From NCBI GenBank assembly GCA_963823555.1, contig CAWGMA010000001.1:448001-512000 (forward strand): a stretch of 64,000 nucleotides of DNA, in the 5' to 3' direction. Both the position numbers and the translations under genes were made by a program. A model generated the notes under the pieces. It was not told where the DNA came from, ran no database searches, and saw nothing but the letters and a program-made list of their open reading frames with translations. Positions 34,372-64,000 of the stretch are shown here, in pieces. This DNA is from Candidatus Eiseniibacteriota bacterium. GTDB taxonomy: Bacteria; Eisenbacteria; RBG-16-71-46; CAVPCR01. The stretch's first letter is position 1. Every line of letters begins with the position of its first letter.

Positions 34372-34381
34372 GTCGTGTCGC

Positions 34382-46863: not shown

Positions 46864-49800
46864 ATGATGCAATCACCAGGCAAGCTAGCGTTCGCGATCC
46901 TCCTGTTCGCGCTGTCTGCGGCACCCGTGCGCGGCCAGACCCTGCAGGTTGGCGTTGATCTGGGTGCCGGGCCGTGGGAGCTTGCCGGTGACGCGGCCGG
47001 GGTGACCCTGACCCCGCATCCGGCCTCCTGGCCCACCGAAAACGGCGGCATAGCGCAGATCATGATTGGAGAAGACGGACTGCCGCTCCTGGTCCTCGAG
47101 GTTCCGGTGAGCCCGGCGGCGCAATCGATCGCGGCGCAGGTGGCGGCATCGACCGCTGCGCCGCCGATCCCGCTCGCCGGCCCGCTCCTGATACCCGCGA
47201 TGGAGGCCTCGGGCGAGGGCTCGCCGCAAGCGCGCCCGGCGCGCCCCGCAGCCCCGGCCCGGGTCCCGGCCGTCCTTGCCGCCAAGCTCTCCCGGGCGCG
47301 GGATCGGGCCACCGCACAGGTCGTGGCGCGGGTCGCCGGGTTCGACGGCACGCATCTGCTTCCGCTGAGCCGGCTCACCATCGAAGTGACCGTCGATCTC
47401 GGTCGCGACCCGCGTGCCGACCATCGCTCCGAGCCGGACCTCGAGGCGCGCTTTGCCCGGGCGCACGGTGACCTTGCCGTGACCAGCGCAGCTCCGCCGC
47501 TGCGTGTGGATCCCGTGTTCGCTCCAGCGCTCGAGCCAACGCTCGATGGCAGCCCGATCGAGGTCGTCATCGTGACCAGCGAAGCGCTGCGCCCGGAGTT
47601 CGAGCGCCTGGCTCACTACCGTACGAGCTTCGGGCACCGGGCCGTGGTGCGCACGGTCGAGTGGATCGAGTCCGAGTACGCCGGGGCGCCGCATTCCGAT
47701 CTGGCAGCGCGGATCCGTGCTTTCATCGCGGATGCCCGTGCTCGCTGGGGCACGATGTGGGTGCTGCTCGGCGGTGATACCGACATCATCCCGGCGCGCT
47801 ACGCCGTGTCGCGCTACTTCGTCAGCGATTACGAGCTGATCCCCGCCGATCTCTACTATGCGGCTCTCGATGGCGACTGGAATGCCGACGGCGATGCCTT
47901 GATCGGTGAGGCTCCGGGAGGCGAGGGCGATCCCGGGGACGATGTCGATCTGGTGCCCGATGTGTTCCTCGGGCGGGCGCCGGTTTCGACGGCGGCGGAA
48001 GCGCGGCAGTTCGTCGAGCGCCAGATCTCCTACGAGGAGGGTGCAGGCGCCGCCGAGGACTACCCGGCCTCCGTGCTCTTCCTGGCGGAGGTCCTGTTCG
48101 AGTCCCTCGATGGGGCGGAGATCGCCGAGGACACTCGGCAGCACCTGCCCCCGGACGTGTCGGCTACTCGCCTCTACGAGAACACCGCGGCCTATCCGGG
48201 ATCCGAGCCGGAGACCCCGGCCTCGGTGCTCGCCGCCCTCGAGCACGGGTACGGGGTTGTCGAGCACGTGGGTCACGGGTTCCGCAACACGCTCTCCGTG
48301 GGCCCCGGTTCCATCAACAACGCCGACATCGATGGCCTGGGCAACCGGCCGCGGCTGCCCGTGTTCGTCGCGCTCAACTGCACATCGGCGGCCATCGATT
48401 TCAACTCGATCGGCGAGCGGTTGGTCAAGAACCCCGCCGGCGGGGCCATCGCCTATGTCGGGTCCTCGCGCTATGCCTTCCCCGGTCATGCTCGTCTCTA
48501 TCAGGAGGCCTTCTTCCGATCTGCCTTCACCGACAGCCTGCGCACGGTCGGTGAGGTGTTGCAGCGCACGCGGAGCTTGCTCGCCCCGCTTGCCGTGATC
48601 GAGGGGGCGCACCGCTGGACCCAGTTCGCGCTCACGGTGGTCGGGGACCCGATGACGCCGCTGTTCACCCGGCGTCCCGAGCCTCTGGTCCTGCATCACG
48701 ATCCATCGATCGCGCCGGGGACCGAGACGATGGCCATCCAGGTCACGGCCGGCGGCGCGCCGATCGCGGATGCCCCGGTCGCCCTCCTGGGGGCCGACGG
48801 CAGCCTGGCCACCGCGGGAACCGACGCGGCAGGTCTCGTCATGCTCCCGGTCCCGGTGGGGGCCCGGGGTCCCTTCATGGTGGCCGCCAGCTTCCCGGAT
48901 CGCTGGCCCTCGCGTTCGGGGCTGGCGGTCGTCGGAAACGGGGGCTCGTACCTCGTGGTGCGCGATCTCACGGTCGATGACCGAGCCGACGGCGACGGCG
49001 ACGGGAGCGCCGAACCGGGCGAGACCGTGGGTCTCGGGATCACGGTCGAGAATGCCGGCGGGGAAGTGTCATCGGCAGGAGAGGCGCGGATCGCGCTCAG
49101 CTCCGGACCCGGCGCCATGATCGATGGGCAGGCGGCGTTGCCATCTCTCGCGCCCGGTGCCTCGGCCGCCATCGGGTCCTTCAGCCTGGCCGTGGATCGT
49201 GGGGCCGCGGACGGGGACATCCTGGCGCTCGAGATCATCATCGAGGCGGGCCCCGAACGGCGATCGGTGCGTCGCGTGCTGGCGGTGGGCGGGCCGCGGC
49301 TCCGCCTGGCCGGGCACGTGATCGATGGCAACGGGGAAGTGGATCCCAACGAGACCGTGCGCTACTCGCTCCTCCTCACCAACGACGGCGGGGGCCCGGC
49401 ACGGGCCGTGACCGCCGCGGCGCGCGTCCTCGATATCGCGACCGGGGAGCCCGCGGCCGGCGTCACGCTTCTCGATGGTCGCTCGCGCTTCGGCGATCTC
49501 CGGCCGGAGGAGACGACCGCCGGAGATCCCTTCGTTTTCGCGCTCGGTTCCGCGGTCGATCCCGATTCCCTTCATCTCGAGGTGCGGGTGACGACGGCGC
49601 TCGGCGCGGAACCAGCTCGTCTCCTCGATTTCGTGCCCCCGGGGCCGCCGACCGCGCTCCGCACCCGTGGCTCGGAGCGCGCCGTGCTCGTGAGCTGGAC
49701 TGCGCCCCCGGACAGCGACCTCGCTGGCTACGAGGTCGAACGGGCGGAGGATGGTGGCGGGCCGTTCGTTCTCGTGACGCCGCGCCCGGTGGCGCAATCC

Positions 49801-51609
49801 TCGTTCACCGATCGCGCGCTCCCCGAACTCGCCACCTTGACCTACCGGGTGGCGGCCGTCGATTCATCCGGCAATCGCAGCGTGGTGTCGGCCACCGTCG
49901 AGGGCACGACCAATCCGGGGCTCCATCCGGGATGGCCGGTGGTCATGGGCAGCGAGACGCCGTCCTCGCCGGTCCTTGCCGATCTCGACGGCGATGGCGC
50001 CGATGAGATCGTGACCGGAGCCGATGCGTTGTATGCCTGGCACGGCGATGCCACGGAGCTCCGCAATGGTGACAATGATGTGCTCACGAGCGGCGTTTTC
50101 ACCACCGACGGCATTGTTGCGGGGTCTCGCGGGTTTCACGCGGTGCCGGCGATCGCCGATCTCGATGGCGATGGCGAGCTCGACCTTATCGGCGTGGCCT
50201 GGGAGGCGGCCCAGGTGTTTGCGTGGAGGACGGACGGCTCGCTGCTTCCGGGTTGGCCGCAGAGTCTGGGCCGGGCGCCCAACTGGGGGTCGGCGGCGGT
50301 CGGTGATCTCGACGGCGACTCGGATCTCGAGGTGACCGTGCTCGGCGGTGGCGATGGTCAGGTCTATGCCTGGCACCACGACGGGAGCGAGGTGGCCGAT
50401 GGTGACGGGAACCCCGAAACGCACGGCGTCTTGCTCTCGACCGGGGACCGGTTCAGCTTCGGCACGCCGGCGCTTGCCGATCTGGACGGCAATCCTGGGC
50501 TCGAGATCGTGATCGGCATCGACATCTACCCGTTCACCGGGGGGGTCGGAGGATTGCATGCCCTGACGGCGACCGGTGCCGAGGTGCCCGGATTCCCGCG
50601 CTTCCTCGGGAGCAAGATCTCCGCTTCGCCCGCCATCGGCGATCTCGACGGCGATGGCACACTCGAGATCGTGATCGCGGTCGAGGATGACTCGCTCCGC
50701 GTGCTGGAAGCCGATGGTTCGCCGAGGCCCGGCTGGCCGCAGTGGGCTTTCATCAGGAACGCCCCGGCGCGCACTTCTTCGCCCGTCTTGGCGGATCTCG
50801 ACGGCGATGGACGACTCGAGATCGTGTTCGCCGAGAACTCGGGAGCAGCCTCCCATGTCGCGCATCTCAGGGTCTTTCGCGACGATGGCTCCGTGTTCCC
50901 GGGATTCGAGAACGTGACTTTTGCCACCGACCCCGAGGCGGTGAATGCGGGCGCCACGCAGTCGACGCCGGTCATCGGGGATGTCGACGGTGATACCCGC
51001 TTCGAGATCCTGCTCGGGGCCGAGGACGGGCGGCTCTATGGCTGGCATGACGACGGCAGTGTGGCCGGGGGGTTCCCGATCCAGACCGAAGGTGAGATCC
51101 GGGGGGCGGCGGCCCTCGGCGATGTCGACGGGGACGGCCTGCTCGAACTGGTGGTCGCCGGCTGGGACAAGAATCTCTATGTCTGGGATCTCGCCGGAGA
51201 GGCGCTCCCGGATCGGGTGCCCTGGCCCTTCTTCCATCGCGATGTGCGAAACAGCGGAAACGTCACGTTACCCATGCCGCGCGCCACGGAAGGAGGGAGT
51301 CGGGATCTGGATCCCGACGCAGCATTCCATCGTGGACCGCAGTTATTCGCTCCAGAGCCGACGCCGGCCAATCCGGCGACCGAGATCCGCTTCTTGCTGC
51401 CGGAAGGCGGTCCGACCCGGGTCGTCCTCTATGGCGTGGACGGCCGCGCCGTCCGCCGCTTGCATGCCGGTCCCCTGGCTCGTGGCGAGCACCGGATGCG
51501 CTGGGACGGCCGTACCGATTCCGGCGCGCCGGCCCCTTCAGGTGTTTACTGGATCCATCTTGCTGCGCCCGGAGGAGAAGCGACGACCCGTATCGTCGTG
51601 ATCCGCTGA
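46864..51609 (+). CDS. C25 cysteine peptidase, copy 2 (divergent N-terminal propeptide)
   Basis: LLGGDTDIIP, EHVGHG, LNCTS, VGDP; FG-GAP repeats; degenerate CTD PTPANP..RIVVIR. Confidence 0.86.
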   Translation: MMQSPGKLAFAILLFALSAAPVRGQTLQVGVDLGAGPWELAGDAAGVTLTPHPASWPTENGGIAQIMIGEDGLPLLVLEVPVSPAAQSIAAQVAASTAAPPIPLAGPLLIPAMEASGEGSPQARPARPAAPARVPAVLAAKLSRARDRATAQVVARVAGFDGTHLLPLSRLTIEVTVDLGRDPRADHRSEPDLEARFARAHGDLAVTSAAPPLRVDPVFAPALEPTLDGSPIEVVIVTSEALRPEFERLAHYRTSFGHRAVVRTVEWIESEYAGAPHSDLAARIRAFIADARARWGTMWVLLGGDTDIIPARYAVSRYFVSDYELIPADLYYAALDGDWNADGDALIGEAPGGEGDPGDDVDLVPDVFLGRAPVSTAAEARQFVERQISYEEGAGAAEDYPASVLFLAEVLFESLDGAEIAEDTRQHLPPDVSATRLYENTAAYPGSEPETPASVLAALEHGYGVVEHVGHGFRNTLSVGPGSINNADIDGLGNRPRLPVFVALNCTSAAIDFNSIGERLVKNPAGGAIAYVGSSRYAFPGHARLYQEAFFRSAFTDSLRTVGEVLQRTRSLLAPLAVIEGAHRWTQFALTVVGDPMTPLFTRRPEPLVLHHDPSIAPGTETMAIQVTAGGAPIADAPVALLGADGSLATAGTDAAGLVMLPVPVGARGPFMVAASFPDRWPSRSGLAVVGNGGSYLVVRDLTVDDRADGDGDGSAEPGETVGLGITVENAGGEVSSAGEARIALSSGPGAMIDGQAALPSLAPGASAAIGSFSLAVDRGAADGDILALEIIIEAGPERRSVRRVLAVGGPRLRLAGHVIDGNGEVDPNETVRYSLLLTNDGGGPARAVTAAARVLDIATGEPAAGVTLLDGRSRFGDLRPEETTAGDPFVFALGSAVDPDSLHLEVRVTTALGAEPARLLDFVPPGPPTALRTRGSERAVLVSWTAPPDSDLAGYEVERAEDGGGPFVLVTPRPVAQSSFTDRALPELATLTYRVAAVDSSGNRSVVSATVEGTTNPGLHPGWPVVMGSETPSSPVLADLDGDGADEIVTGADALYAWHGDATELRNGDNDVLTSGVFTTDGIVAGSRGFHAVPAIADLDGDGELDLIGVAWEAAQVFAWRTDGSLLPGWPQSLGRAPNWGSAAVGDLDGDSDLEVTVLGGGDGQVYAWHHDGSEVADGDGNPETHGVLLSTGDRFSFGTPALADLDGNPGLEIVIGIDIYPFTGGVGGLHALTATGAEVPGFPRFLGSKISASPAIGDLDGDGTLEIVIAVEDDSLRVLEADGSPRPGWPQWAFIRNAPARTSSPVLADLDGDGRLEIVFAENSGAASHVAHLRVFRDDGSVFPGFENVTFATDPEAVNAGATQSTPVIGDVDGDTRFEILLGAEDGRLYGWHDDGSVAGGFPIQTEGEIRGAAALGDVDGDGLLELVVAGWDKNLYVWDLAGEALPDRVPWPFFHRDVRNSGNVTLPMPRATEGGSRDLDPDAAFHRGPQLFAPEPTPANPATEIRFLLPEGGPTRVVLYGVDGRAVRRLHAGPLARGEHRMRWDGRTDSGAPAPSGVYWIHLAAPGGEATTRIVVIR

Positions 51610-51662: not shown

Positions 51663-54600
51663 ATGAACCAGCGACGATCGATCCTCCTTTCCATTCGAGA
51701 ACCGGCCGCGGTGCTGAGTTGTTTGCTCCTTACCTCCGTGATTGCCGCCGGTGTGGTGGCGGCTCTTCCGGCGAGCCTCCGCGAGGAGGTGCGCTTCGCG
51801 GCGAGCGATCTCCGGCTGGAGGAACAGGCGGACGGCACGGTGGTGGTGCGCTACCCGGGAGCGGTAGGGTCGCCGGCCGGGTCGCCGGATCTGCCGCTCG
51901 TGCCGGTGTGGATCGAGGTGCCATCGGGGATGCGGGTGGTGGGGGTCAAGAGCCGGGCGCAGGGGGTGGCGGAGCTGGGAGTGGTGCGGGTGCGACCGGT
52001 GGCGCCGGACGTGCGCGTGGGTGAGGCGGAGAAGGCGGCGGTGGCGGACGCGGAGGTGTACGGGAGCGCGGGGCCGGTGCCTGGGGAGTGGGCGGTGCTC
52101 GCGAGCGAGGGGACGCTCCGCGGTCACCAGCTGGCGGGGGTGCTGGTGTCGCCGGTCAGGTGGTCGCCCGGGACGGGTCAGCTCGAGCGGGCGAGCGTGG
52201 TCGAGGTCGAGCTCGTCCTCGAGCCGGGGCGGCCGGCAGGGATGCCGGAGGCGGTCGAGCGGCGGCGGGTGTCGGCGGCGATCGAGTCGAAGTTCGAGGC
52301 GGACGCATCGAAGTGGATCCGCGGGTTCACCCCGGCGGCGGCGACCGAGGGTGGGGGCGATGCGGGGAGCGGTCCGGCGGGTCCGGGGCCGTACCAGCCG
52401 ACGTTCCGGCCGACGACGGACGGGAGCGCGGTGGAGTACGTGGTGGTGACGTCGGCGGCGCTGGCGGGGGAGTTCCAGCGGCTGGCGGACTGGAAGACGC
52501 AGAAGGGGGTGCAGGCGGCGGTCAGGACGGTCGAGTGGATCGACCAGACGTACCCGAACGGGGTGGACCGCGCGGAGCGGGTCCGGTTCTTCATCCGTGA
52601 CGCGTACCAGAACTGGGGGACGATGTACGTGCTCCTCGGTGGCGACACCGACATCGTGCCGCCCCGCTATGCGCAGATGGTCCTCTTCGACGAGCGGATT
52701 CCCGCCGACTACTACTTCGCGTGTCTCGACGGCAACTGGAACTACGACGGAGATTCGCGCTTCGGCGAGTCGCTTTCCGGCGGTCCCCCTGGGGATCAGT
52801 GCGATCTGCACTTCGAAGTGACGGTGGGTCGGGTTCCGGCGTCGACTCCGGATCAGGTCGCCCGCTTCGTCGATAAGTTGCTCCTCTACGAACAGAACCC
52901 GCCGGTCGAAGCACGCTACCCCGCGTCGATCCTGGTGCTGGCTGAGCGCCTCTTCACCACGCTTCACGGAGCGGATATCGCGGAGGAGGCGCTGGCCCTG
53001 GTGCCGTCCTGGATCCGCAAGGTGCGTCTCTACGAGGAGTCGGCGAGCTACCCCGGATCCATCGAGCTCAACCGGCAGGTGGCGGTCGATTCGATCAACG
53101 CCGGATTCGGCATCGTGCACCATGTCGGCCACGGCTATCGCAACACCATGTCGCTGGGTAGTGGCACGATGTCGAACGGGGATGCGGACAACCTGGTGAA
53201 CGCGCCGCGGAACTCGGTGGTGTTCGCCATCAACTGCAGCTCCGCCTCGATCGACTTCAACTCGATCGGGGAGCGCTGGGTGAAGAACGCGAACGGCGGC
53301 TCGATCGCCTATCTGGGCACCTCCCGCCTGGCCTTCGTAACGGCCTCGCGCGCCTACCAGGGCGAATGGTATGCCACCGTCTTCCAGGATTCGACTCGAT
53401 CGCTCGGTCTCGCCACCGATGAATCGCGTGCCATCTTCATTCCGGCCGCCCAGTTTGATGGCGTTCAGCGCTGGAACTTGCTGGCGACGACGTTGCTGGG
53501 GGATCCGGAGGTGGATCTGTACACGAACGCGGTGGTGCCGCTCGTGGTGACGCATGCCTCGACGACACCGATCGGGGGGGCGCCCTTGTCGGTGACGGTG
53601 ACGGCCGGGGGGTCGCCGGTGGCGGGAGCGACGGTGACGTTGTGGAAGGCGGGGGAGAGCTATGTCAGGGGGGTGACGGGAGCGAACGGTCAGGCGCAGC
53701 TGGCGGTGGGGGCGAACACGCCGGGGGCGATGACGGTGACGGTGCACAAGAGCTACTACCGGCCGTACGTGGGGACGGTGACGGCGACGAGCGCGAGCGG
53801 GCCGTACGTGTACGTGACGGGTCTGGTGGTGGACGACGACAACGTGGGCCAGTCGAGCGGGGACGGGGACGGGCGGGCGGATGCGGGGGAGACGGTGGAG
53901 CTCCGGGTGACGCTCCGGAACGGGGGAGGGGGGCAGGTGACGGGGCTGGTGGGGACGATCTCGGAGAACGATCCGGAGAACGCGCTGACGATCGTCCAGG
54001 CGACGGTGAGTTACGGGACGATCGCTCCGGGGGGTAGCACGCAGGGCAGCGGGGCCTTCGTGGTGACGATCGCGGAGAACGCGCCGGTGGCGTACCAGCC
54101 GGTGCTGACGGTGGTGGCGGCGGGGACGCAGGGGACGTGGGTGGACCCGGTGGTGCTGCCGCTCCGGCGGCCGTACCTGGAGCACTGGGGTCACGTGGTG
54201 GACGACGCGTCGCCGCGAGGCAACGGGAACGGGGTGGTGGAGGCGGGGGAGGAGATCTACTACCGGGTGACGGTGAAGAACACGGGGCAGGACGGATCGG
54301 TGGGGCTCGCGGGATCGCTCCGGGCGCTCCAGGTGTCGGACCGGCAGCCGCACCCCGGGGTGACGGTGGGGGATGGGGCATCGAGCTTCGGGACGCTCAC
54401 GCCGGGTCAGCAGGTGGAGGGGGATCGGTTCGCGTTCACGCTGAGCAGCCTGACCGATCCGACGACGGTGCTCCTCGAGCTCACGCTGACCGACGCGCTC
54501 GGGGTGGCGGCCGTTCAGTATATCGATCTGACTTCACCCTCTCCGCCCGGCACCTTCTCCGCCTTTGGCTCGCCGGGGACGATTCTCTTGACCTGGGAGC

Positions 54601-56495
54601 GAGCGCAGGCAAGCGACATCCGTGGCTATGACGTGCTTCGTTCGATCTCGCCCGGGGGCCCGTTCCAGCGGATCAACGCCTACACGGTGGACGGGACGGC
54701 GGCGTACGAGGATCGTGGGCTGCCGGCGTTGACGCGGTATTACTACCAGGTGGTGTCGCGGGACTCATCGTACAACGCGTCGGTGCCGTCGGCTGTCTTC
54801 TCCGGGACCACCAACCCGCCCGCGGCCGCCGGCTGGCCCCAGGAGCTGGCCCAGCAGAGCTCCTCCTCTGCCGTCATCGCCGATATCGACGGCGGCGCGC
54901 ACATCGAGCTCCTCTGCGGCTCCGATATGATGTATGCCTGGCACGGAGACGGCACCGAAGTCGTCGATGGCGATGATGACTCGCGCACCAACGGGCCCTT
55001 CTCCCTCCACGGGTGGAGCACGGATTCGTTCGGGTTCGCGTCCACCCCCGCCGTCGGCGATGTGGACGGCGACGGCGACCTCGAGGTCGCCAGTGTCGGG
55101 TTCACCTCCGATTCTCTCTTCGTGTGGCAGGGTAACGGACAGCTGTTCCCCGGCTGGCCCAAGTGGGTCATGGATGACCTCAACTGGGGATCGGTGGTGC
55201 TTGCCGATCTGGACCGGGATGGCGACCTGGAGATGATCGTCTGGGCTGCCAATGGCGGTCGACTCTTCGCCTGGCATCACACCGGACAGGAAGTGGTCGA
55301 CGGCGACGCCAATCCCGCCACCGACGGCATCCTGGCTCGTGTCCTCGGCACATCCTTCAACTACGGATCAGCCGCCGTCGGCAATCTCGACCAGGATCCC
55401 GAGCTCGAGATCGTGGCCCCCGTCAACTTCTCCCAGGATGACACGGGTCGCGTATACGCTTTCAACATCGACGGCAGCATGGTAGCAGGATGGCCCTTCA
55501 CGACCGGAAGCGGCACTCCCTCCGAGGTCAGCTCCTCCCCGGTCATCGCTGATCTCGACGGCGATGGAGACGAGGAGGTCATCTTCGCAGCCGAGCGCGA
55601 TTACGGTCGCCTCTACGTCCTCAATGGCAACGGCACCGTGGCCACGGGATGGCCGCAAAACGTGATCGCGCTCTCTGCGGATGCGCGACTGCCATCACCC
55701 GCGGTGGGCGACGTGGATGCCGATGGCGCGCTCGAGATCGTCTACGCCGATACCGAAGGCAAGCTCTTCGTGTTCGAGCGCAATGGCGCCCTGCATCCCG
55801 GATTTCCCCTCTGGTACTATCCCGATCCGCCAGGCGAGGCGACGCAGTCGACCCCGGTGCTCGGTGATATCGACGGGGATCCCGAACTGGAGATCGTGTT
55901 CGGAGACGAGTCGGGTGTGGTGCGTGGCTACAACGCCGATGGCTCGTTGGTCGCCGGGTTCCCCATCCGGCTCACTGGAGAGGTGCGCTCCTCGCCTGCG
56001 CTCTGGGACCTGGATCGCGACGGGCTCCTGGAGATGGCGGTCGTCGGGTTCGATTCCCAAGTCTACGTGTGGGATCTCACTGCCGAGTTCAACCCGCAGC
56101 GGTTGCCGTGGCCCTTCTTCCGCCACGACACGCGGAATACCGGGCGCTTCGTGACCGCGGTGCAGCCGATCGGTATCGCCGAGCCGGCAGCTGCTCCTGA
56201 GGTTGCCAGCGCCGCATTCCATGGCGCTCACCCCAATCCGTTCAATCCAACGACGACCCTCGGATTCGATGTGCCGGGCGAGACCGGTGGCGCTCAGATG
56301 GTGACGCTGGCCATCTACGACGTCGGCGGCCGCCTCTTGCGGCAGTTGATCGATGGACCGATCGCGACCGGATCCCATGCGGTCGAATGGGACGGTCGGA
56401 CGGTCGCCGGAGCTCAGGTGAGCTCGGGGGTCTATTTCGCCCACATCACGATCGGCGACTTTGTTGCCACCCGGAAGCTCGTCGTCGTGCGCTGA
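51663..56495 (+). CDS. C25 cysteine peptidase, copy 3
   Basis: Same architecture; HHVGHG and INCSS; ends PNPFNP..KLVVVR. Confidence 0.88.
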   Translation: MNQRRSILLSIREPAAVLSCLLLTSVIAAGVVAALPASLREEVRFAASDLRLEEQADGTVVVRYPGAVGSPAGSPDLPLVPVWIEVPSGMRVVGVKSRAQGVAELGVVRVRPVAPDVRVGEAEKAAVADAEVYGSAGPVPGEWAVLASEGTLRGHQLAGVLVSPVRWSPGTGQLERASVVEVELVLEPGRPAGMPEAVERRRVSAAIESKFEADASKWIRGFTPAAATEGGGDAGSGPAGPGPYQPTFRPTTDGSAVEYVVVTSAALAGEFQRLADWKTQKGVQAAVRTVEWIDQTYPNGVDRAERVRFFIRDAYQNWGTMYVLLGGDTDIVPPRYAQMVLFDERIPADYYFACLDGNWNYDGDSRFGESLSGGPPGDQCDLHFEVTVGRVPASTPDQVARFVDKLLLYEQNPPVEARYPASILVLAERLFTTLHGADIAEEALALVPSWIRKVRLYEESASYPGSIELNRQVAVDSINAGFGIVHHVGHGYRNTMSLGSGTMSNGDADNLVNAPRNSVVFAINCSSASIDFNSIGERWVKNANGGSIAYLGTSRLAFVTASRAYQGEWYATVFQDSTRSLGLATDESRAIFIPAAQFDGVQRWNLLATTLLGDPEVDLYTNAVVPLVVTHASTTPIGGAPLSVTVTAGGSPVAGATVTLWKAGESYVRGVTGANGQAQLAVGANTPGAMTVTVHKSYYRPYVGTVTATSASGPYVYVTGLVVDDDNVGQSSGDGDGRADAGETVELRVTLRNGGGGQVTGLVGTISENDPENALTIVQATVSYGTIAPGGSTQGSGAFVVTIAENAPVAYQPVLTVVAAGTQGTWVDPVVLPLRRPYLEHWGHVVDDASPRGNGNGVVEAGEEIYYRVTVKNTGQDGSVGLAGSLRALQVSDRQPHPGVTVGDGASSFGTLTPGQQVEGDRFAFTLSSLTDPTTVLLELTLTDALGVAAVQYIDLTSPSPPGTFSAFGSPGTILLTWERAQASDIRGYDVLRSISPGGPFQRINAYTVDGTAAYEDRGLPALTRYYYQVVSRDSSYNASVPSAVFSGTTNPPAAAGWPQELAQQSSSSAVIADIDGGAHIELLCGSDMMYAWHGDGTEVVDGDDDSRTNGPFSLHGWSTDSFGFASTPAVGDVDGDGDLEVASVGFTSDSLFVWQGNGQLFPGWPKWVMDDLNWGSVVLADLDRDGDLEMIVWAANGGRLFAWHHTGQEVVDGDANPATDGILARVLGTSFNYGSAAVGNLDQDPELEIVAPVNFSQDDTGRVYAFNIDGSMVAGWPFTTGSGTPSEVSSSPVIADLDGDGDEEVIFAAERDYGRLYVLNGNGTVATGWPQNVIALSADARLPSPAVGDVDADGALEIVYADTEGKLFVFERNGALHPGFPLWYYPDPPGEATQSTPVLGDIDGDPELEIVFGDESGVVRGYNADGSLVAGFPIRLTGEVRSSPALWDLDRDGLLEMAVVGFDSQVYVWDLTAEFNPQRLPWPFFRHDTRNTGRFVTAVQPIGIAEPAAAPEVASAAFHGAHPNPFNPTTTLGFDVPGETGGAQMVTLAIYDVGGRLLRQLIDGPIATGSHAVEWDGRTVAGAQVSSGVYFAHITIGDFVATRKLVVVR
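51768..52670 (+). repeat. Near-identical block A (propeptide and start of C25 domain), repeated at ~56621-57517 and ~61615-62500
   Basis: Direct comparison shows long identical runs with only scattered substitutions and one short variable patch. Confidence 0.9.
53482..54505 (+). repeat. Near-identical block B (Ig-like region), repeated at ~58332-59355 and 63311 to window end
   Basis: Offsets 4850 and 9829; sequence essentially identical from TGGCGACGACGTTGCTGGGG onward. Confidence 0.9.
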
Positions 56496-56545
56496 GGTCC
56501 AATCATGACGAAGTCCCTGCAACAGCGAAACTCTGGAGTCGACTG

Positions 56546-59500
56546 ATGATGAACCGCTGCCACGGCATGCCGCTCTTGATCCTGATGCTCTTGGTATCCG
56601 TCGGCGCCGCCCACTCGAGCCCGGCGAGCCTCCGCGAGGAGGTGCGCTTCGCGGCGGGCGATCTCCGGCTGGAGGAACAGGCGGACGGCACGGTGGTGGT
56701 GCGCTACCCGGGAGCGGTAGGGTCGCCGGCCGGGTCGCCGGATCTGCCGCTCGTGCCGGTGTGGATCGAGGTGCCATCGGGGATGCGGGTGGTGGGGGTC
56801 AAGAGCCGGGCCCAGGGGGTGGCGGAGCTGGGAGTGGTGCGGGTGCGGCCGGTGGCGCCGGACGTGCGCGTGGGTGAGGCGGAGAAGGCGGCGGTGGCGG
56901 ACGCGGAGGTGTACGGGAGCGCGGGGCCGGTGCCCGGGGAGTGGGCCCGGCTCGGGAGCGAGGGGACGCTCCGCGGTCACCAGCTGGCGGGGGTGCTGGT
57001 GTCGCCGGTCAGGTGGTCGCCGGGGACGGGTCAGCTCGAGCGGGCGAGCGTGGTCGAGGTCGAGCTCGTCCTCGAGCCGGGAGCGGTAACTTCGGGTGTC
57101 GTCGAGCGGCGGCGGGTGTCGGCGGCGATCGAGTCGAAGTTCGAGGCGGACGCATCGAAGTGGATCCGCGGGTTCACCCCGGCGGCGGCGACCGAGGGTG
57201 GGGGCGATGCGGGGAGCGGTCCGGCGGGTCCGGGGCCGTACCAGCCGACGTTCCGGCCGACGACGGACGGGAGCGCGGTGGAGTACGTGGTGGTGACGTC
57301 GGCGGCGCTGGCGGGGGAGTTCCAGCGGCTGGCGGACTGGAAGACGCAGAAGGGGGTGCAGGCGGCGGTCAGGACGGTCGAGTGGATCGACCAGACGTAC
57401 CCGAACGGGGTGGATCGGGCGGAGCGGGTCCGGTTCTTCATCCGTGACGCGTACCAGAACTGGGGGACGATGTTCGTGCTCCTCGGTGGCGACACCGATA
57501 TCGTGCCGCCCCGCTATATCGAGAGTTCCTACTACGGCCAGGAGTCGATTCCCGCCGACTACTACTACGCGTGTCTCGACGGCAACTGGAACTACGACGG
57601 AGATTCGCGCTTCGGTGAAGCGCGATTCTATGCCGTGCAGTCCGATTCAGTGGACTTCCATTTCGACGTCTCGGTCGGCCGGGCGCCGGTTTCGACGCTG
57701 ACCGAGGCGGATACTTTCGTCGACAAGACACTCCTCTACGAGCAGAACCCACCCATCCTGGCGCGCTATCCGGCGTCGATCCTGGTGCTGGCTGAGCGCC
57801 TGTTCCCGAGCACCCATGGTGCCGACATCGCGGAGGAGGCGCTGGCCCTGGTGCCGTCCTGGATCCGCAAGGTGCGTCTCTACGAGGAGTCGGCGAGCTA
57901 CCCTGGATCCATCGAGCTAAACCGGCAGGTGGCGGTCGATTCGATCAACGCCGGATTCGGCATCGTGCACCACGTCGGCCACGGCTACCGCAACACGATG
58001 TCGGTGGGCGCGGGAACGCTCAACAATGCCGACTCCGATGCGCTCATGAACGCACCGAAGAACTCGGTGGTGTTCGCCATCAACTGCAGCTCCGCCTCGA
58101 TCGATTTCAATTCGATCGGGGAGCGCTGGGTGAAGAACGCGAACGGCGGCTCGATCGCCTATCTGGGCACCTCCCGCCTGGCCTTCATCGCTGCCTCCGA
58201 GGCGTATCAAAACGCCTGGTACTCGACCGTCTTCCAGGATTCGGTGCGTTCGATCGGGACGGTCTCCAACCTGGGCCGCATGGCCCTCTATCCCAACGCG
58301 GAGTATGAGTCGGCGAACCGCTGGAATCTGATGGCGACGACGTTGCTGGGGGATCCGGAGGTGGATCTGTACACGAACGCGGTGGTGCCGCTCGTGGTGA
58401 CGCATGCGTCGACGACACCGATCGGGGGGGCGCCCTTGTCGGTGACGGTGACGGCCGGGGGGTCGCCGGTGGCGGGAGCGACGGTGACGTTGTGGAAGAG
58501 CGGGGAGAGCTATGTCAGGGGGGTGACGGGAGCGAACGGTCAGGCGCAGCTGGCGGTGGGGGCGAACACGCCGGGGGCGATGACGGTGACGGTGCACAAG
58601 AGCTACTACCGGCCGTACGTGGGGACGGTGACGGCGACGAGCGCGAGCGGGCCGTACGTGTACGTGACGGGTCTGGTGGTGGACGACGACAACGTGGGCC
58701 AGTCGAGCGGGGACGGGGACGGGCGGGCGGATGCGGGGGAGACGGTGGAGCTCCGGGTGACGCTCCGGAACGGGGGAGGGGGGCAGGTGACGGGGCTGGT
58801 GGGGACGATCTCGGAGAACGATCCGGAGAACGCGCTGACGATCGTCCAGGCGACGGTGAGTTACGGGACGATCGCTCCGGGGGGTAGCACGCAGGGCAGC
58901 GGGGCCTTCGTGGTGACGATCGCGGAGAACGCGCCGGTGGCGTACCAGCCGGTGCTGACGGTGGTGGCGGCGGGGACGCAGGGGACGTGGGTGGACCCGG
59001 TGGTGCTGCCGCTCCGGCGGCCGTACCTGGAGCACTGGGGTCACGTGGTGGACGACGCGTCGCCGCGAGGCAACGGGAACGGGGTGGTGGAGGCGGGGGA
59101 GGAGATCTACTACCGGGTGACGGTGAAGAACACGGGGCAGGACGGATCGGTGGGGCTCGCGGGATCGCTCCGGGCGCTCCGGGTGTCGGACCGGCAGCCG
59201 CACCCCGGGGTGACGGTGGGGGATGGGGCATCGAGCTTCGGGACGCTCGTGCCGGGTCAGCAGGTGCAGGGGGATCGGTTCGCGTTCACGCTGGGGGGAG
59301 CGACCGACCCGACGACGGTGCTGCTCGAGCTCACGCTGACCGACGCGCTCGGGGTGGCGGACTTGGAGCTGCTGGACGTGCTGCATCCGGACTCGCCGGA
59401 CACGCTGAAGGCTTTCGGTTCGCCGTCCTCGATCCGCTTGACGTGGAACCGCTCGGCGGCGACGGATGCGAAGGGTTACGACGTGTACCGGTCGAGCTCG

Positions 59501-61345
59501 CCCGGGGGGCCGTTCCAGCGGATCAACGCCTACACGGTGGACGGGACGGCGGCGTACGAGGATCGTGGGCTGCCGGCGTTGACGCGGTATTACTACCAGG
59601 TGGTGTCGCGGGATTCGTCGTACAACGCGTCGGTGCCGTCGGTGGTGATCTCGGGGACCACCAACCCGCCCTACACCCCCGGCTGGCCGATCGAGCTCGC
59701 CCAGCAGAGCGCATCCTCCGCCGTCATCGCCGACATCGATGGTGGCTCACACACCGAGATCATGTGCGGCGGCGACGTGCAATACGCCTGGCATGGGGAT
59801 GGCACCGAGGTCGTCGACGGCGACGACGATGATCGGACCAACGGCCCCTTCTCCCTCTACGGCCGGCGGACCACGACCTCCGGCTTCGCTGCCACGCCGG
59901 CGATCGGCAACATCGACCTCGCCGGTCGTCTGGAGGTGGTCAACATCGGCTTCACAGCCGACTCGCTCTACGTATGGAACAATGTCGGACAGCTGATGAG
60001 TGGTTGGCCCAAGTGGGTCATGGGCGACTTCAACTGGGCCTCGGTCATGCTTCCGGATCTCGATCTCGACGGAGATCTCGAGATCGTGGCCTGGGCGGCG
60101 AATGGCGGTCGCCTCTTCGCCTGGCATCACAACGGGCAGGAAGTGGTCGACGGCGACGCCAATCCCGCCACCGATGGCATCCTGGCCCGGATCCTCGGCG
60201 CGTCGTTCAACTACTCGAGCCCCGCGGTCGCCAATCTGGATGCCGATCCTCAGCTCGAGATCCTCGTTGCGGTCAATCGGTCCACGGACAATACGGGAGG
60301 CGTCTATGCCTTCAACACGAACGGGACCCCGGTTCCCGGCTGGCCCTTCCTGACCGGCAGCGCGCAGAATCCATCGGAGGTCAGCTCATCCCTGGCGGTG
60401 GCCGACCTCGACGGTGACGGAGACGAGGAGATCATCTTCGCAGCCGAGCGCGACGGCGGCCGCGTCTATGTGCTGAATGGCAACGGGACCGTGGTTCCGG
60501 GATGGCCGAAGGCTGCTGCTGCCTATACCCAGGACGCGCGCCTGCCATCTCCCGTGGTCGCGGATCTAGATGACGACACCTCCCTCGATGTCGTCTTTCC
60601 CGATACCGACGGCAACCTCTGGGCCTGGAACCGCAACGGCGCGGTCCTGCCCGGATATCCGGTCGTCTACTATCCCAACGCCCAGACGCAGACGACGCAG
60701 TCGACACCGGCCGTGGGAGACGTCGACGGCGATCTCGACCCCGAGGTCATCTTCGGTGACGAGGCCGGTTTCGTTCACGGCTACAACGGTGACGGCACAC
60801 TGGCGGCGGGCTTCCCCATCCAGGTGGGGGGCGAGGTCCGTTCGACTCCGGCGATCTGGGATCTGGACCGGGACAACCGGGTCGAGGTCGTCGCCGTCTG
60901 CTACGACTCCAATGTCTATTCCTGGGATCTCCCGGGACGCTTCAATCCACAGCGCATCCCGTGGCCATTCTTCCGCCATGACATCCGCAACACGGGACGC
61001 TTCCTCACTTCGGTTCAGATCGGAATCGACGAGCCGGATGCGGTGCCGGTGCCGGGCGTGGCCGCTTTCCACCTGGCGCGACCCAACCCGTTCAATCCGG
61101 CGACCACGCTGGCCTTCGACGTGCCTGGCAAGGCAGGCGGCGCGCGACCGGTGACCCTCGACATCATCGATGTCTCGGGACGTCTGGTGCGTCGCCTCCT
61201 CGACGGCCCCGTCGAGACCGGTTCCCATGCCCTGGTCTGGGATGGGCGCCAGTCGAGCGGAGGCATGTCTCCCTCCGGCGTTTACTTCGCCAGGATCGCG
61301 ATCGGCAGCTTCACCGCCACCCAGAAGCTCACGCTCGTGCGATGA
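56546..61345 (+). CDS. C25 cysteine peptidase, copy 4
   Basis: ATG 56546 after GGAG gives a signal peptide; HHVGHG and INCSS; ends PNPFNP..KLTLVR. Confidence 0.88.
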   Translation: MMNRCHGMPLLILMLLVSVGAAHSSPASLREEVRFAAGDLRLEEQADGTVVVRYPGAVGSPAGSPDLPLVPVWIEVPSGMRVVGVKSRAQGVAELGVVRVRPVAPDVRVGEAEKAAVADAEVYGSAGPVPGEWARLGSEGTLRGHQLAGVLVSPVRWSPGTGQLERASVVEVELVLEPGAVTSGVVERRRVSAAIESKFEADASKWIRGFTPAAATEGGGDAGSGPAGPGPYQPTFRPTTDGSAVEYVVVTSAALAGEFQRLADWKTQKGVQAAVRTVEWIDQTYPNGVDRAERVRFFIRDAYQNWGTMFVLLGGDTDIVPPRYIESSYYGQESIPADYYYACLDGNWNYDGDSRFGEARFYAVQSDSVDFHFDVSVGRAPVSTLTEADTFVDKTLLYEQNPPILARYPASILVLAERLFPSTHGADIAEEALALVPSWIRKVRLYEESASYPGSIELNRQVAVDSINAGFGIVHHVGHGYRNTMSVGAGTLNNADSDALMNAPKNSVVFAINCSSASIDFNSIGERWVKNANGGSIAYLGTSRLAFIAASEAYQNAWYSTVFQDSVRSIGTVSNLGRMALYPNAEYESANRWNLMATTLLGDPEVDLYTNAVVPLVVTHASTTPIGGAPLSVTVTAGGSPVAGATVTLWKSGESYVRGVTGANGQAQLAVGANTPGAMTVTVHKSYYRPYVGTVTATSASGPYVYVTGLVVDDDNVGQSSGDGDGRADAGETVELRVTLRNGGGGQVTGLVGTISENDPENALTIVQATVSYGTIAPGGSTQGSGAFVVTIAENAPVAYQPVLTVVAAGTQGTWVDPVVLPLRRPYLEHWGHVVDDASPRGNGNGVVEAGEEIYYRVTVKNTGQDGSVGLAGSLRALRVSDRQPHPGVTVGDGASSFGTLVPGQQVQGDRFAFTLGGATDPTTVLLELTLTDALGVADLELLDVLHPDSPDTLKAFGSPSSIRLTWNRSAATDAKGYDVYRSSSPGGPFQRINAYTVDGTAAYEDRGLPALTRYYYQVVSRDSSYNASVPSVVISGTTNPPYTPGWPIELAQQSASSAVIADIDGGSHTEIMCGGDVQYAWHGDGTEVVDGDDDDRTNGPFSLYGRRTTTSGFAATPAIGNIDLAGRLEVVNIGFTADSLYVWNNVGQLMSGWPKWVMGDFNWASVMLPDLDLDGDLEIVAWAANGGRLFAWHHNGQEVVDGDANPATDGILARILGASFNYSSPAVANLDADPQLEILVAVNRSTDNTGGVYAFNTNGTPVPGWPFLTGSAQNPSEVSSSLAVADLDGDGDEEIIFAAERDGGRVYVLNGNGTVVPGWPKAAAAYTQDARLPSPVVADLDDDTSLDVVFPDTDGNLWAWNRNGAVLPGYPVVYYPNAQTQTTQSTPAVGDVDGDLDPEVIFGDEAGFVHGYNGDGTLAAGFPIQVGGEVRSTPAIWDLDRDNRVEVVAVCYDSNVYSWDLPGRFNPQRIPWPFFRHDIRNTGRFLTSVQIGIDEPDAVPVPGVAAFHLARPNPFNPATTLAFDVPGKAGGARPVTLDIIDVSGRLVRRLLDGPVETGSHALVWDGRQSSGGMSPSGVYFARIAIGSFTATQKLTLVR

Positions 61346-61488
61346 GGCGACGCCGCGATCGGGGTCCAGTCAGTATTTGCAGTCGGTCCTCGGGGCCGAC
61401 CGCGGGCTACGAGAACAGGGCCGGGAGAGACCGGCCGGTCATCGCGCACCGCCTGCCATGAACGGCGATGCGTTGAAGGAGCACAGAC

Positions 61489-64000
61489 ATGAAGGGGCGC
61501 CGTAAGCCGCGCACGGGTTGCAATCGCTCGATTCTCACTCTGCTGCTCTGTCTCTCTGCGCTGGGATCCTCCGCCTCCATGGAGGCGATCGAGGCCGAGG
61601 CGGCGACAAGGGTCGAGGAGGTGCGCTTCGCGGCGAGCGATCTCCGGCTGGAGGAACAGGCGGACGGCACGGTGGTGGTGCGCTACCCGGGAGCGGTAGG
61701 GTCGCCGGCCGGGTCGCCGGATCTGCCGCTCGTGCCGGTGTGGATCGAGGTGCCATCGGGGATGCGGGTGGTGGGGGTCAAGAGCCGGGCCCAGGGGGTG
61801 GCGGAGCTGGGAGTGGTGCGGGTGCGGCCGGTGGCGCCGGACGTGCGCGTGAGCGACGAAGAGAAGGCGGCGGTGGCGGACGCGGAGGTGTACGGGAGCG
61901 CGGGGCCGGTGCCTGGGGAGTGGGCGGTGCTCGCGAGCGAGGGGACGCTCCGCGGTCACCAGCTGGCGGGGGTGCTGGTGTCGCCGGTCAGGTGGTCGCC
62001 GGGGACGGGACGGCTCGAGCGGGCGAGCGTGGTCGAGGTCGAGCTCGTCCTCGAGCCGGGGCGGCCGGCAGGGATGCCGGAGGCGGTCGAGCGGCGGCGG
62101 GTGTCGGCGGCGATCGAGTCGAAGTTCGAGGCGGACGCATCGAAGTGGATCCGCGGGTTCACCCCGGCGGCGGCGACCGAGGGTGGGGGCGATGCGGGGA
62201 GCGGTCCGGCGGGTCCGGGGCCGTACCAGCCGACGTTCCGGCCGACGACGGACGGGAGCGCGGTGGAGTACGTGGTGGTGACGTCGGCGGCGCTGGCGGG
62301 GGAGTTCCAGCGGCTGGCGGACTGGAAGACGCAGAAGGGGGTGCAGGCGGCGGTCAGGACGGTCGAGTGGATCGACCAGATGTACCCGAACGGGGTGGAT
62401 CGGGCGGAGCGGGTCCGGTTCTTCATCCGTGACGCGTACCAGAACTGGGGGACGCGCTACGTGCTCCTCGGTGGCGACACCGATATCGTACCCCCGCGCT
62501 ACGCGCAGATGGTCGTCTACAATGCCGAGCAGATTCCCGCTGACTACTACTACGCGTGCCTCGACGGGAACTGGAACGCCGATGGGGATTCGCGCTTCGG
62601 AGAATCGCTCTTCGGCGGTGGGGATGAGTGCGACTTCTATGCCGAGGTGAACGTCGGGCGGGCGCCGGTGTCGACGCTGGCCGAGGCCGATACCTTCGTC
62701 GACAAGACGCTCCTCTACGAGCAGAACCCGCCGCTCTCCTCCCGTTACCCGGCCTCCTTCCTCGCCCTCGCCGAGCGCCTCTTCACCGATATTCACGGTG
62801 CCGACATCGCCGAGGAGGCGATTGACTTCCTGCCGCCATGGATGCGCGTCGTCCGGCTGTACGAGGAGTCGGCGAGCTATCCGGGGTCGATCGAGCTGAC
62901 GAAGGACGCAGCGATCGACTCGATCGACGCCGGGTTCGGGATCGTGCACCATGTCGGCCACGGCTATCGCAACACCATGTCGCTGGGTAGTGGCACGATG
63001 TCGAACGGGGATGCGGACAACCTGGTGAACGCGCCGCGGAACTCGGTGGTGTTCGCCATCAACTGCAGCTCCGCCTCGATCGACTTCAACTCGATCGGGG
63101 AGCGCTGGGTGAAGAACCCGAACGGCGGCTCGATCGCCTATCTGGGCACCTCCCGTCTCTCCTTCGTGGCGGCTGCCGAGACCTACCAGGGCGAGTGGTA
63201 TGCCCGGGTGTGGCAGGACTCGGTGCGAAGCCTCGGTCCTGTCACTGATTTTGCCCGCCAGTCCCTCATCCCGGGTTCCGACTACGACTCGGCGAACCGC
63301 TGGAACTTGCTGGCGACGACGTTGCTGGGGGATCCGGAGGTGGATCTGTACACGAACGCGGTGGTGCCGCTCGTGGTGACGCATGCCTCGACGACACCGA
63401 TCGGGGGCTCGCCCTTGTCGGTGACGGTGACGGCCGGGGGGTCGCCGGTGGCGGGAGCGACGGTGACGTTGTGGAAGGCGGGGGAGAGCTATGTCAGGGG
63501 GGTGACGGGAGCGAACGGTCAGGCGCAGCTGGCGGTGGGGGCGAACACGCCGGGGGCGATGACGGTGACGGTGCACAAGAGCTACTACCGGCCGTACGTG
63601 GGGACGGTGACGGCGACGAGCGCGAGCGGGCCGTACGTGTACGTGACGGGTCTGGTGGTGGACGACGACAACGTGGGCCAGTCGAGCGGGGACGGGGACG
63701 GGCGGGCGGATGCGGGGGAGACGGTGGAGCTCCGGGTGACGCTCCGGAACGGGGGAGGGGGGCAGGTGACGGGGCTGGTGGGGACGATCTCGGAGAACGA
63801 TCCGGAGAACGCGCTGACGATCGTCCAGGCGACGGTGAGTTACGGGACGATCGCTCCGGGGGGTAGCACGCAGGGCAGTGGGGCCTTCGTGGTGACGATC
63901 GCGGAGAACGCGCCGGTGGCGTACCAGCCGGTGCTGACGGTGGTGGCGGCGGGGACGCAGGGGACGTGGGTGGACCCGGTGGTGCTGCCGCTCCGGCGGC
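61489..64000 (+). CDS. C25 cysteine peptidase, copy 5 (truncated by window end; absent from the ORF track)
   Basis: GAAGGAG RBS, ATG 61489, MKGRRKPRTGCNRSILTLLLCLSALGSS... in frame with the EEVRFAASDL block shared with copies 3 and 4; HHVGHG near 62947 and NC at 63061. Confidence 0.88.
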   Translation, partial: MKGRRKPRTGCNRSILTLLLCLSALGSSASMEAIEAEAATRVEEVRFAASDLRLEEQADGTVVVRYPGAVGSPAGSPDLPLVPVWIEVPSGMRVVGVKSRAQGVAELGVVRVRPVAPDVRVSDEEKAAVADAEVYGSAGPVPGEWAVLASEGTLRGHQLAGVLVSPVRWSPGTGRLERASVVEVELVLEPGRPAGMPEAVERRRVSAAIESKFEADASKWIRGFTPAAATEGGGDAGSGPAGPGPYQPTFRPTTDGSAVEYVVVTSAALAGEFQRLADWKTQKGVQAAVRTVEWIDQMYPNGVDRAERVRFFIRDAYQNWGTRYVLLGGDTDIVPPRYAQMVVYNAEQIPADYYYACLDGNWNADGDSRFGESLFGGGDECDFYAEVNVGRAPVSTLAEADTFVDKTLLYEQNPPLSSRYPASFLALAERLFTDIHGADIAEEAIDFLPPWMRVVRLYEESASYPGSIELTKDAAIDSIDAGFGIVHHVGHGYRNTMSLGSGTMSNGDADNLVNAPRNSVVFAINCSSASIDFNSIGERWVKNPNGGSIAYLGTSRLSFVAAAETYQGEWYARVWQDSVRSLGPVTDFARQSLIPGSDYDSANRWNLLATTLLGDPEVDLYTNAVVPLVVTHASTTPIGGSPLSVTVTAGGSPVAGATVTLWKAGESYVRGVTGANGQAQLAVGANTPGAMTVTVHKSYYRPYVGTVTATSASGPYVYVTGLVVDDDNVGQSSGDGDGRADAGETVELRVTLRNGGGGQVTGLVGTISENDPENALTIVQATVSYGTIAPGGSTQGSGAFVVTIAENAPVAYQPVLTVVAAGTQGTWVDPVVLPLRR

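What the first reader, a model, noticed from the sequence alone, without database searches (positions are those of the whole stretch)
51663..64000. Mosaic protease cassettes: constant scaffold blocks with shuffled active-site segments
Seen: copies 3, 4 and 5 share near-identical blocks of about 0.9-1 kb, while the catalytic core between them is a patchwork whose closest partner keeps switching. GRPAGMPEAV is shared by 3 and 5 (52227, 62059) but not 4. GRAPVSTLxEADTFVDKTLL is shared by 4 and 5 (~57677, ~62656) but not 3. EEALALVPSWIRKVRL..LNRQVAVDSINAG is shared by 3 and 4 (~52983, ~57833) but not 5. MSLGSGTMSNGDADNLVNAPRN is identical in 3 and 5 (53148, 62977) but not 4. Established: simple duplication gives one consistent tree, and switching patches indicate gene conversion. 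Inference: a recombination-driven diversifying system for secreted gingipain-like proteases, with constant blocks as homology arms and substrate loops exchanged.
Basis: partly seen in the sequence, partly recalled or inferred. Interest (0 to 1): 0.85.

Follow-up and report, generated by a model that had tools for sequence, protein, structure and literature searches.

The report
Self-copying protease genes keep private loops
Three neighbouring gingipain-like protease genes of an uncultured aquatic bacterium share two nearly identical 1-kb stretches, most likely because the copies keep overwriting each other, while the loops predicted to shape the substrate pocket stay specific to each copy; the shared stretches are rewritten with G-ending codons, a signature that likely follows the direction of DNA replication.

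Summary
Genes 3-5 of a six-gene C25 protease array (Ca. Eisenbacteria), plus a fourth copy 414 kb away, carry gene-conversion tracts. A same-genus genome has the same array. The constant blocks and the His/Cys-bearing stretch group by genome. The variable core 'islands', the propeller and the tail group by orthologue (AU tests). So the blocks are the products of conversion, and most predicted substrate loops have stayed with their gene since before the species split. One active-site-adjacent segment (177 nt) and small prodomain patches did move. Public short-read contigs reproduce gene 4's core, which argues against an assembly artefact. The duplicated tuf genes do the same, and several homogenised repeats on the lagging strand show the opposite. 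This is a G-only variant of GRINS (TA-skew criterion not met), most likely a by-product of strand-biased conversion. I found no dedicated shuffling machinery. Verdict: concerted evolution with protected specificity regions, a clean test case for an unexplained skew.

The parts
42024..46856 (+). g1: diverged C25 protease paralogue (propeptide-C25-FG-GAP repeats-FlgD_ig tail); not homogenised
   Evidence: Pfam; 44% aa to g3; no skew
46864..51609 (+). g2: diverged C25 paralogue; not homogenised
51663..56495 (+). g3: 1610-aa C25 protease, converting subfamily
   Evidence: model matches RgpB, Z 43.5, rmsd 2.5 A, 391 aligned
56546..61345 (+). g4: C25 protease (likely start 56546; the ORF finder's start at 56387 overlaps g3)
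61489..64000 (+). g5: C25 protease, continues to 66312; g6 follows at 66312-71129 outside the window
51780..52622 (+). Block 1 in g3 (prodomain + N-terminal subdomain, aa 40-320); copies at 56633-57469 and 61612-62454 and in distant copy x81; G at 83-85% of fourfold G/C sites
52659..52976 (+). Island 1 in g3 (aa 333-438; ends at Asp438, aligned with RgpB S1 Asp163); copy-specific, orthologue-like; g4 57506-57826, g5 62491-62805
52977..53120 (+). g3=g4 conversion tract (2 differences in 144 nt; g4 57827-57970)
53112..53288 (+). g3=g5 conversion tract, 177 nt identical (g5 62941-63117), carrying catalytic His490 (53130) and Cys525 (53235)
53337..53468 (+). Island 2 in g3 (aa 559-602; starts in the loop aligned with RgpB Gln282-Trp284); 43-52% aa between copies despite near-identical flanks; g4 58187-58318, g5 63166-63297
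53469..54437 (+). Block 2 in g3 (Ig-like stalk, aa 603-925); copies at 58319-59287 and 63298-64266; G at 91% of fourfold G/C sites; not shared with x81
54828..56489 (+). FG-GAP repeat region (likely beta-propeller) and C-terminal FlgD/T9SS-type tail of g3: unconverted, groups with orthologues; g4 59678-61339

Best explanation
The three genes, with a fourth copy elsewhere, are old paralogues of a likely secreted gingipain-family protease whose shared scaffold (prodomain, N-terminal subdomain, His/Cys strands, Ig stalk) is most likely overwritten again and again by ordinary RecA-type gene conversion, while the loops predicted to set substrate preference and the propeller stay copy-specific, probably because selection removes conversions across them. 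Shown: which segments group by genome and which by orthologue, where the tracts are, and the G-skew. Inferred: conversion here favours G over C on the leading replication strand, so long-converted DNA becomes a G-only GRINS-like tract. My preferred mechanism (untested) is lagging-strand gap repair from the wrong copy. There a C-to-G change forms a C:C mismatch that MutS sees poorly (recalled textbook property), while G-to-C forms a G:G mismatch that is rejected or repaired. Reshuffling of active-site-adjacent pieces is a low-rate by-product, not a programmed system.
For: Syntenic six-gene array and an x81 orthologue in same-genus G001. Segment trees and AU tests: block 1, His/Cys stretch and block 2 reject orthologue pairs (p=1.9e-6, 5.6e-6, 9.6e-6); islands, propeller and tail reject by-genome clades (6e-4, 1e-84, 8e-6). 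Synonymous differences between paralogues are 0.01-0.09 in converted blocks against 0.36-0.48 between orthologues. G001 independently homogenised h4=h5 over block 2 and aa 472-511. At island-1 sites variable in both species, residues match the own orthologue 0.51 vs 0.26 for other copies (37 sites). Skew: fourfold G/(G+C) 0.83-0.91 in blocks, 0.29-0.52 in the g3-g5 islands, 0.32-0.35 in the propeller, C1 mean 0.434 +/- 0.074, and the top 14 of 1367 windows all lie in these four genes. It tracks paralogue identity along the gene (Spearman 0.83, 39 windows) and is polarised, C>G 42 vs G>C 7 in blocks against 27 vs 42 in propellers (p=5e-7). The tuf pair shows 0.90/0.85 while fusA is 0.45 and ribosomal-protein genes 0.25-0.58. 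tuf exceeds its neighbours in 21 of 21 usable relatives (0.82 vs 0.49; 26 loci, 5 left out). In the phylum of a WOR-3 genome both two-copy tuf genes are 0.96-0.97, while 13 of 17 single-hit tuf genes show no excess. A homogenised tandem pair on the lagging strand is C-rich exactly in its 97-100% block (0.17-0.26), and two pairs with copies of opposite polarity are neutral (0.44-0.46). recA, mutS and mutL are present; nucS was not found.
Against: Island boundaries were drawn after seeing the data. Orthologue signal is weak for g3/h3 and for island 2 (g5/h5 41% aa; the ML tree joins g4 with h5), so older loop exchanges are not excluded. Selection is inferred; divergence alone also blocks conversion. 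Only two species were compared, and G001's h3 and h4 carry frameshifts. Polarity has exceptions: one leading-strand repeat family is unskewed (0.41-0.44), IS-like repeats on the lagging strand are G-rich (0.62-0.68), one leading-strand entry is C-rich (0.19), 4 of 17 single-hit tuf genes are skewed, and E. coli tufB is not skewed (0.57 vs 0.51-0.61 neighbours). Leading strands were assigned from GC skew of a four-contig draft. mutS matches in two pieces in this assembly. Loop roles come from sequence alignment to RgpB, not from coordinates.
Confidence: 0.68

Rival explanations
1. A diversifying system: G-rich constant blocks act as recombination-promoting arms, perhaps through G-quadruplexes or R-loops as proposed for Borrelia vls, and are selected to reshuffle active-site segments among the proteases.
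For: Real tracts next to the catalytic dyad in both species. Prodomain patches at aa 120-122 and 144-147 show all combinations among four copies; the first lies beside Arg118, within one column of RgpB's inhibitory-loop Arg (my count). Blocks hold 3-5 canonical G4 motifs each and 42-47 G-runs per kb (vls has 21-27, PMC3585125 passages). Low-depth contigs carry tract combinations absent from the window.
Against: Islands stay with orthologues and are unskewed. G is as frequent where it builds no run (0.86) as where it does (0.88). tuf, which has no need to diversify, shows the same skew, and lagging-strand repeats put the G on the template strand. All copies are intact ORFs rather than silent cassettes, and no conserved boundary repeats were seen. 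Variant contigs differ only in scaffold; g4 island 1 (57546-57826) and island 2 were covered by contigs matching g4.
Confidence: 0.14
2. Neutral ratchet: conversion keeps conserved stretches identical, while fast-evolving loops and the propeller diverged past the homology threshold and escaped by chance, with no selection for distinct specificities.
For: MMR shortens or aborts mismatched tracts (PMC5485169 passages). A conserved motif inside island 1 (aa 353-366) is converted while its flanks are not. Island positions are variable across the whole family and have the lowest model confidence.
Against: Island 2 is only about 130 nt with near-identical flanks yet differs in all 8 copies, whereas short prodomain differences do move. 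Island 1 is as conserved or more conserved between orthologues (64-79% aa) than block 1 (65-68%), so it is not unconstrained.
Confidence: 0.14
3. Assembly or polishing artefact: similar copies were collapsed or chimerised in a long-read draft.
For: The draft contains indel-rich duplicated contig ends. No read or contig spans a whole gene.
Against: Short-read contigs from two studies tile g4 57546-58343 with 0-2 differences each, including one 359-nt contig with 0 differences joining island 1 to the g3-like tract; a 721-nt contig joins g5 island 2 to 530 nt of block 2 with 5 differences. One study could be the source, not both. G001 shows the same block homogenised independently. A collapse cannot create a C-to-G polarised skew, and the true assembly duplicates are unskewed (0.33-0.48).
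Confidence: 0.04

Closest known systems
[quoted passage not shown] 2021, PMC8256042; parts 1-4 of 5 of the text read)
   Same: 0.8-1 kb repeats inside paralogous coding regions, paralogue more alike than orthologue, third-position skew, independent sets in sister genomes, linked to gene conversion.
   Different: G-only: mean absolute GC skew 0.32-0.33 but TA skew 0.11-0.147, under the 0.15 limit, and not positively correlated. A protease array rather than a PKS. The repeats cover the shared scaffold and skip the predicted specificity loops, whereas PKS GRINS are proposed to change specificity. Here the skew appears to follow conversion and replichore, while the paper proposes skew first.
Segment-limited concerted evolution: H. 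pylori babA/babB and homA/homB (PMC2795765 passages), RF1/RF2 domain 3 (PMC4530459 abstract), tufA/tufB (PMC5485169 passages)
   Same: Functionally shared segments are homogenised within a genome while specificity segments diverge.
   Different: Alternating converted and protected segments within one catalytic domain, four copies, a free-living uncultured bacterium, and a compositional footprint that maps conversion.
Gingipains RgpA/RgpB/Kgp, MEROPS C25 (PDB 1cvr, 4ief, 4rbm; PMC4357240 and PMC5266723 passages)
   Same: [quoted passage not shown]
   Different: About 18% identity; tandem array; FG-GAP repeats instead of haemagglutinin adhesins; in gingipains the catalytic domain is shared and diversity arises between strains, here parts of the catalytic domain are what is kept distinct.
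Borrelia vls antigenic variation (PMC3585125, PMC11499132 passages)
   Same: Gene-conversion locus with dense G-runs and strong GC skew on one strand.
   Different: vls has silent cassettes, one expression site and unidirectional exchange of variable regions; none of these is seen here.

Membership tests
GRINS | Duplicated region >500 bp | tested here: met
   837-969 nt per block
GRINS | >80% identity to another copy | tested here: met
   97-99%
GRINS | Mean absolute GC skew >0.15 (150-nt windows, step 30) | tested here: met
   0.323-0.329 in 6 of 6 block copies; core 0.055-0.103
GRINS | Mean absolute TA skew >0.15 | tested here: not met
   0.110-0.147 in 6 of 6 block copies
GRINS | GC and TA skews usually correlated (typical, not in the formal definition) | tested here: not met
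   r from -0.45 to +0.15
C25 gingipain-like peptidase | Peptidase_C25 domain and gingipain fold | tested here: met
   PF01364 222-231 bits for g3-g5; model vs 1cvr E 5e-27, TM 0.78; Z 43.5, rmsd 2.5, 391 aligned vs 4ief_B
C25 gingipain-like peptidase | His/Cys catalytic dyad | tested here: met
   His490 and Cys525 align with RgpB His/Cys; invariant in 30 of 30 aligned proteins
C25 gingipain-like peptidase | Inhibitory prodomain | tested here: met
   Profile hits Kgp (2e-13) and RgpB (6e-5) prodomains; inhibition itself untested
C25 gingipain-like peptidase | Arg/Lys P1 specificity via S1 Asp | tested here: inconclusive
   Asp438 aligns with Asp163 in g3, g4, g5, x81, but Thr/Glu/Leu stand there in h3, hx, g6; gapped alignment, no assay
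C25 gingipain-like peptidase | Proteolytic activity and secretion | not testable with these tools
   TIGR04183 tail above cut-off in g3 (29.2), below in g4 and g1
vls/pilE-type antigenic variation | Silent donor cassettes and one expression locus | tested here: not met
   All six array genes and x81 are full-length ORFs with their own N-termini
vls/pilE-type antigenic variation | Variable regions are what is exchanged | tested here: not met
   AU tests
vls/pilE-type antigenic variation | High within-population switching rate | tested here: inconclusive
   Only low-depth contigs; variants seen in scaffold only
Concerted evolution by gene conversion | Paralogues more alike than orthologues, also at synonymous sites, in syntenic genes | tested here: met

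The most novel reading that the evidence does not exclude
Ectopic gene conversion in these bacteria is directional by strand: it fixes G over C on the leading strand, plausibly because MutS misses C:C mismatches during lagging-strand gap repair. It thereby writes a readable map of long-term conversion into every self-copying gene. In this array the map shows selection shielding substrate loops while the scaffold, the L3 segment and the patch beside the inhibitory Arg are traded. The same by-product could account for G-only GRINS, skewed tuf pairs and perhaps the G-runs of Borrelia vls, now read as a cause.
Probability: 0.35. Interest if true: 0.75.

Novelty: new variant of a known kind. Interest (0 to 1): 0.5.

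Why it matters
The origin of GRINS skews is stated as unknown (PMC8256042). This locus puts converted and unconverted DNA in one reading frame, with orthologues, an unconverted fourth copy, tuf and opposite-strand repeats as controls, and yields a cheap prediction (bias flips with orientation, vanishes without MutS). If the skew marks conversion, it can locate specificity-determining regions in uncharacterised paralogue families from one genome. It also warns that skew at a conversion locus need not be the cause of the conversion. For the proteases, it names the loops to test for division of labour in a large C25 expansion (21 PF01364 matches in this genome, about 16 near full length).

Tried and rejected
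Conspecific alternative mosaics: the one metagenome scan gave 4 loci, all other species (69-88% nt). Two of them (L060, L061) were translated partly out of frame, so their rows and the 15-taxon trees were not used; the 10-taxon tests were. No RNA holder was listed, so expression is unknown. X6 contigs are a related strain or species and their differences did not track any one paralogue. X5 contig 25 looks mosaic but could be a de Bruijn chimera. Long near-identical blocks (40-nt seed, 90%) were not found between the more diverged C25 paralogues fetched from G003, G004 or 9 other loci; two hits in G004 look like contig-end overlaps. No plasmid homologue. Site-specific recombination signals: no shared boundary repeats in g3 or g4; I did not screen the flanks for recombinase genes beyond the Pfam scans of 26 window ORFs, which named none. 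Selection for G-runs: no preference by context. High expression as the cause of skew: rejected by fusA, rpoC and ribosomal genes. Recent partial duplication: rejected by synteny and by the accumulated C-to-G changes. Mapping patches on 3D coordinates was not possible because the model's coordinates are not returned. Literature searches (listings only) showed no paper on Eisenbacteria C25 arrays or on replication-polarised C-to-G conversion bias; the library lacks most subscription journals, and the GRINS supplements were not read.

Full report
Setting. The window is G000:C1:448001-512000 of a 4.6-Mb, four-contig draft. Six tandem genes of about 1600 aa (g1 42024 to g6 71129; g5 and g6 pass the window end) each encode an N-terminal prodomain region, Peptidase_C25, FG-GAP repeats and an FlgD/T9SS-type tail (g1-g4 and the window part of g5 were scanned, g6 by alignment). 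g3, g4 and g5 are 77-80% identical in protein, and a fourth close copy, x81, lies at C1:81149-86053 on the other strand. An AlphaFold model of the g3 catalytic + Ig region (pLDDT 93.5) matches RgpB best. His490 and Cys525 align with the gingipain dyad.

Observation. Every motif cited is at the stated coordinate, and the blocks have the stated size. Informative sites are clustered far beyond chance (166 runs vs 232.6, p=1e-4; third positions p=0.0012). A permutation search for identical fragments in 28 pairs of 8 genes finds tracts of 50-680 nt only within a genome; in the 16 cross-species pairs the longest significant fragment is 31 nt. In the core the clear tracts are g3=g4 (aa 439-486, 2 differences in 144 nt) and g3=g5 (177 nt identical, spanning His and Cys).

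Artefact check. Contigs of public short-read runs from two studies tile g4 from 57546 to 58343 with 0-2 differences per piece; one 359-nt contig with no difference joins g4-specific island 1 to the g3-like tract, and a 721-nt contig joins g5 island 2 to block 2. No piece spans a gene and depths are 2-5. Two pieces carry fine-grained mixtures of g4 and g5 alleles not present in the window: aa 884-951 (switches 15-23 nt apart, too close for a 31-mer chimera) and aa 533-543. These hint at segregating tracts, in scaffold only.

What moves and what stays. G001 has the same six-gene array behind the same ETF genes and an x81 orthologue; two of its genes have frameshifts and were read through with X. 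Constrained-tree AU tests on ten genes: block 1 (aa 45-320), the His/Cys stretch (439-558) and block 2 (603-925) reject orthologue pairing; islands (333-438 plus 559-602), propeller and tail reject by-genome clades; the region at aa 926-1055 rejects both. Tested singly, each island rejects by-genome clades (p 0.012, 0.010) and does not reject orthologue pairing (0.23, 0.24). Boundaries were chosen after inspection, and island 2 gives a weak orthologue signal except for x81/hx. G001 has independently made h4 and h5 95% identical in block 2 and identical over 120 nt around the catalytic His. By alignment to RgpB, island 1 ends at the residue matching Asp163 and island 2 begins in the loop matching Gln282-Trp284, both S1 contacts according to PMC4357240 (passages). 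The constant blocks are thus the converted DNA, and most predicted substrate loops are what resists. The segment after His (L3 region) and prodomain patches at aa 120-122 and 144-147 do reassort.

A compositional footprint. Fourfold-degenerate G/(G+C) is 0.83-0.85 in block 1 and 0.91 in block 2, against 0.434 +/- 0.074 on C1; islands are 0.29-0.52 and propellers 0.32-0.35 in g3-g5. x81 has the skew only in the block it shares (0.82 vs 0.52), and G001 shows it more weakly where it is homogenised (h4/h5 0.67-0.70 vs h3 0.54, hx 0.46). Changes are polarised C to G (42:7 vs 27:42), so conversion has run long enough to rewrite most ancestral C sites. Genome-wide, the other top windows are the two tuf genes (0.85-0.93), whose neighbours are normal. 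The tuf excess holds in 21 of 21 usable relatives (of 26 loci; own genome and 4 without neighbours left out; kin are not independent). In the phylum of a WOR-3 genome, both two-copy tuf genes are skewed, 13 of 17 single-hit ones are not and 4 are, possibly through hidden second copies in fragmented assemblies. E. coli tufB is not skewed. Several homogenised repeats on the inferred lagging strand are C-rich in coding sense (0.16-0.34), two opposite-polarity pairs and the contig-overlap duplicates are neutral, and there are exceptions, mostly IS-like. The sign therefore seems to follow replication, not the coding strand, which argues against selection for G-quadruplexes or R-loops.

Mechanism. 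Shown: segment-limited homogenisation and a polarised skew confined to it. Inferred: RecA-type conversion (recA, mutS, mutL present, nucS not found), selection shielding the islands, and strand-biased fixation. My proposal is gap repair on the lagging strand using a paralogue, in which C-to-G passes as a C:C mismatch and G-to-C is caught as G:G. MutS's poor recognition of C:C is recalled; PMC5485169 (passages) confirms only that mismatch type shapes tuf conversion tracts.

Comparison. An earlier scan note on tuf pointed me to GRINS, after I had measured the skew. The blocks meet the length, identity and GC-skew criteria and miss the TA criterion (definition), so they work like GRINS but are not formal members. 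The scan's index holds 146 findings with those words, so such repeats are not rare. Segment-limited concerted evolution is known from bab/hom (PMC2795765 passages), RF1/RF2 (PMC4530459 abstract) and tuf; PMC6053082 (passages) lists long-lasting cases; bioRxiv 10.1101/2025.10.29.685298 (abstract) models mosaic divergence in tandem paralogues. Gingipain mosaics in P. gingivalis are between strains (PMC5266723 passages). vls shares the G-runs (PMC3585125, PMC11499132 passages) but not the architecture.

Verdict. Observation confirmed; interpretation partly supported. Best reading (0.68): concerted evolution of the scaffold with protected specificity regions, marked by a G-only, probably replication-polarised conversion bias. 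New variant of a known kind; interest 0.5.

Noticed in passing
G000:C3:538366-539508 and 555231-556421: Both tuf genes use G at 85-90% of fourfold G/C sites; neighbours are normal; same in 21 of 21 usable relatives.
   Followed up: yes
G000:C3:475185-480604 (-): Second tandem pair of likely secreted repeat proteins with an FlgD-like tail; 97-100% identical over about 240 codons, C-rich in that block (0.17-0.26).
   Followed up: partly
G000:C1:27589-30426 (-): Protein with 450-nt internal Cys-rich repeats at 95% identity, strongly C-skewed in coding sense (0.11-0.20).
   Followed up: partly
window 19809-34425: Three LamG/Fn3 repeat genes with 70-83% identical modules; the first has raised G (0.61-0.69) over its repeats. 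ORFs 27171-30425 and 30211-34425 overlap and may be one frameshifted gene.
   Followed up: partly
window 18297-19793: Multicopy ORF with no Pfam match, 95-98% identical to copies at four other places, all G-skewed (0.62-0.69) and all on the inferred leading strand; possibly a mobile element.
   Followed up: partly
G000:C1:1421967-1424611 (-): mutS matches in two separate frames; sequencing error or a split gene.
   Followed up: no
g6 (66312-71129), g1, g2, h3: The residue aligned with RgpB S1 Asp163 is Leu in g6, Ala in g1, Glu in g2 and Thr in h3, suggesting different P1 preferences within the array.
   Followed up: no
G000 C2 end / C4 start; C1 start / C3 end: Duplicated contig ends with many indel differences, typical of a long-read draft.
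   Followed up: partly
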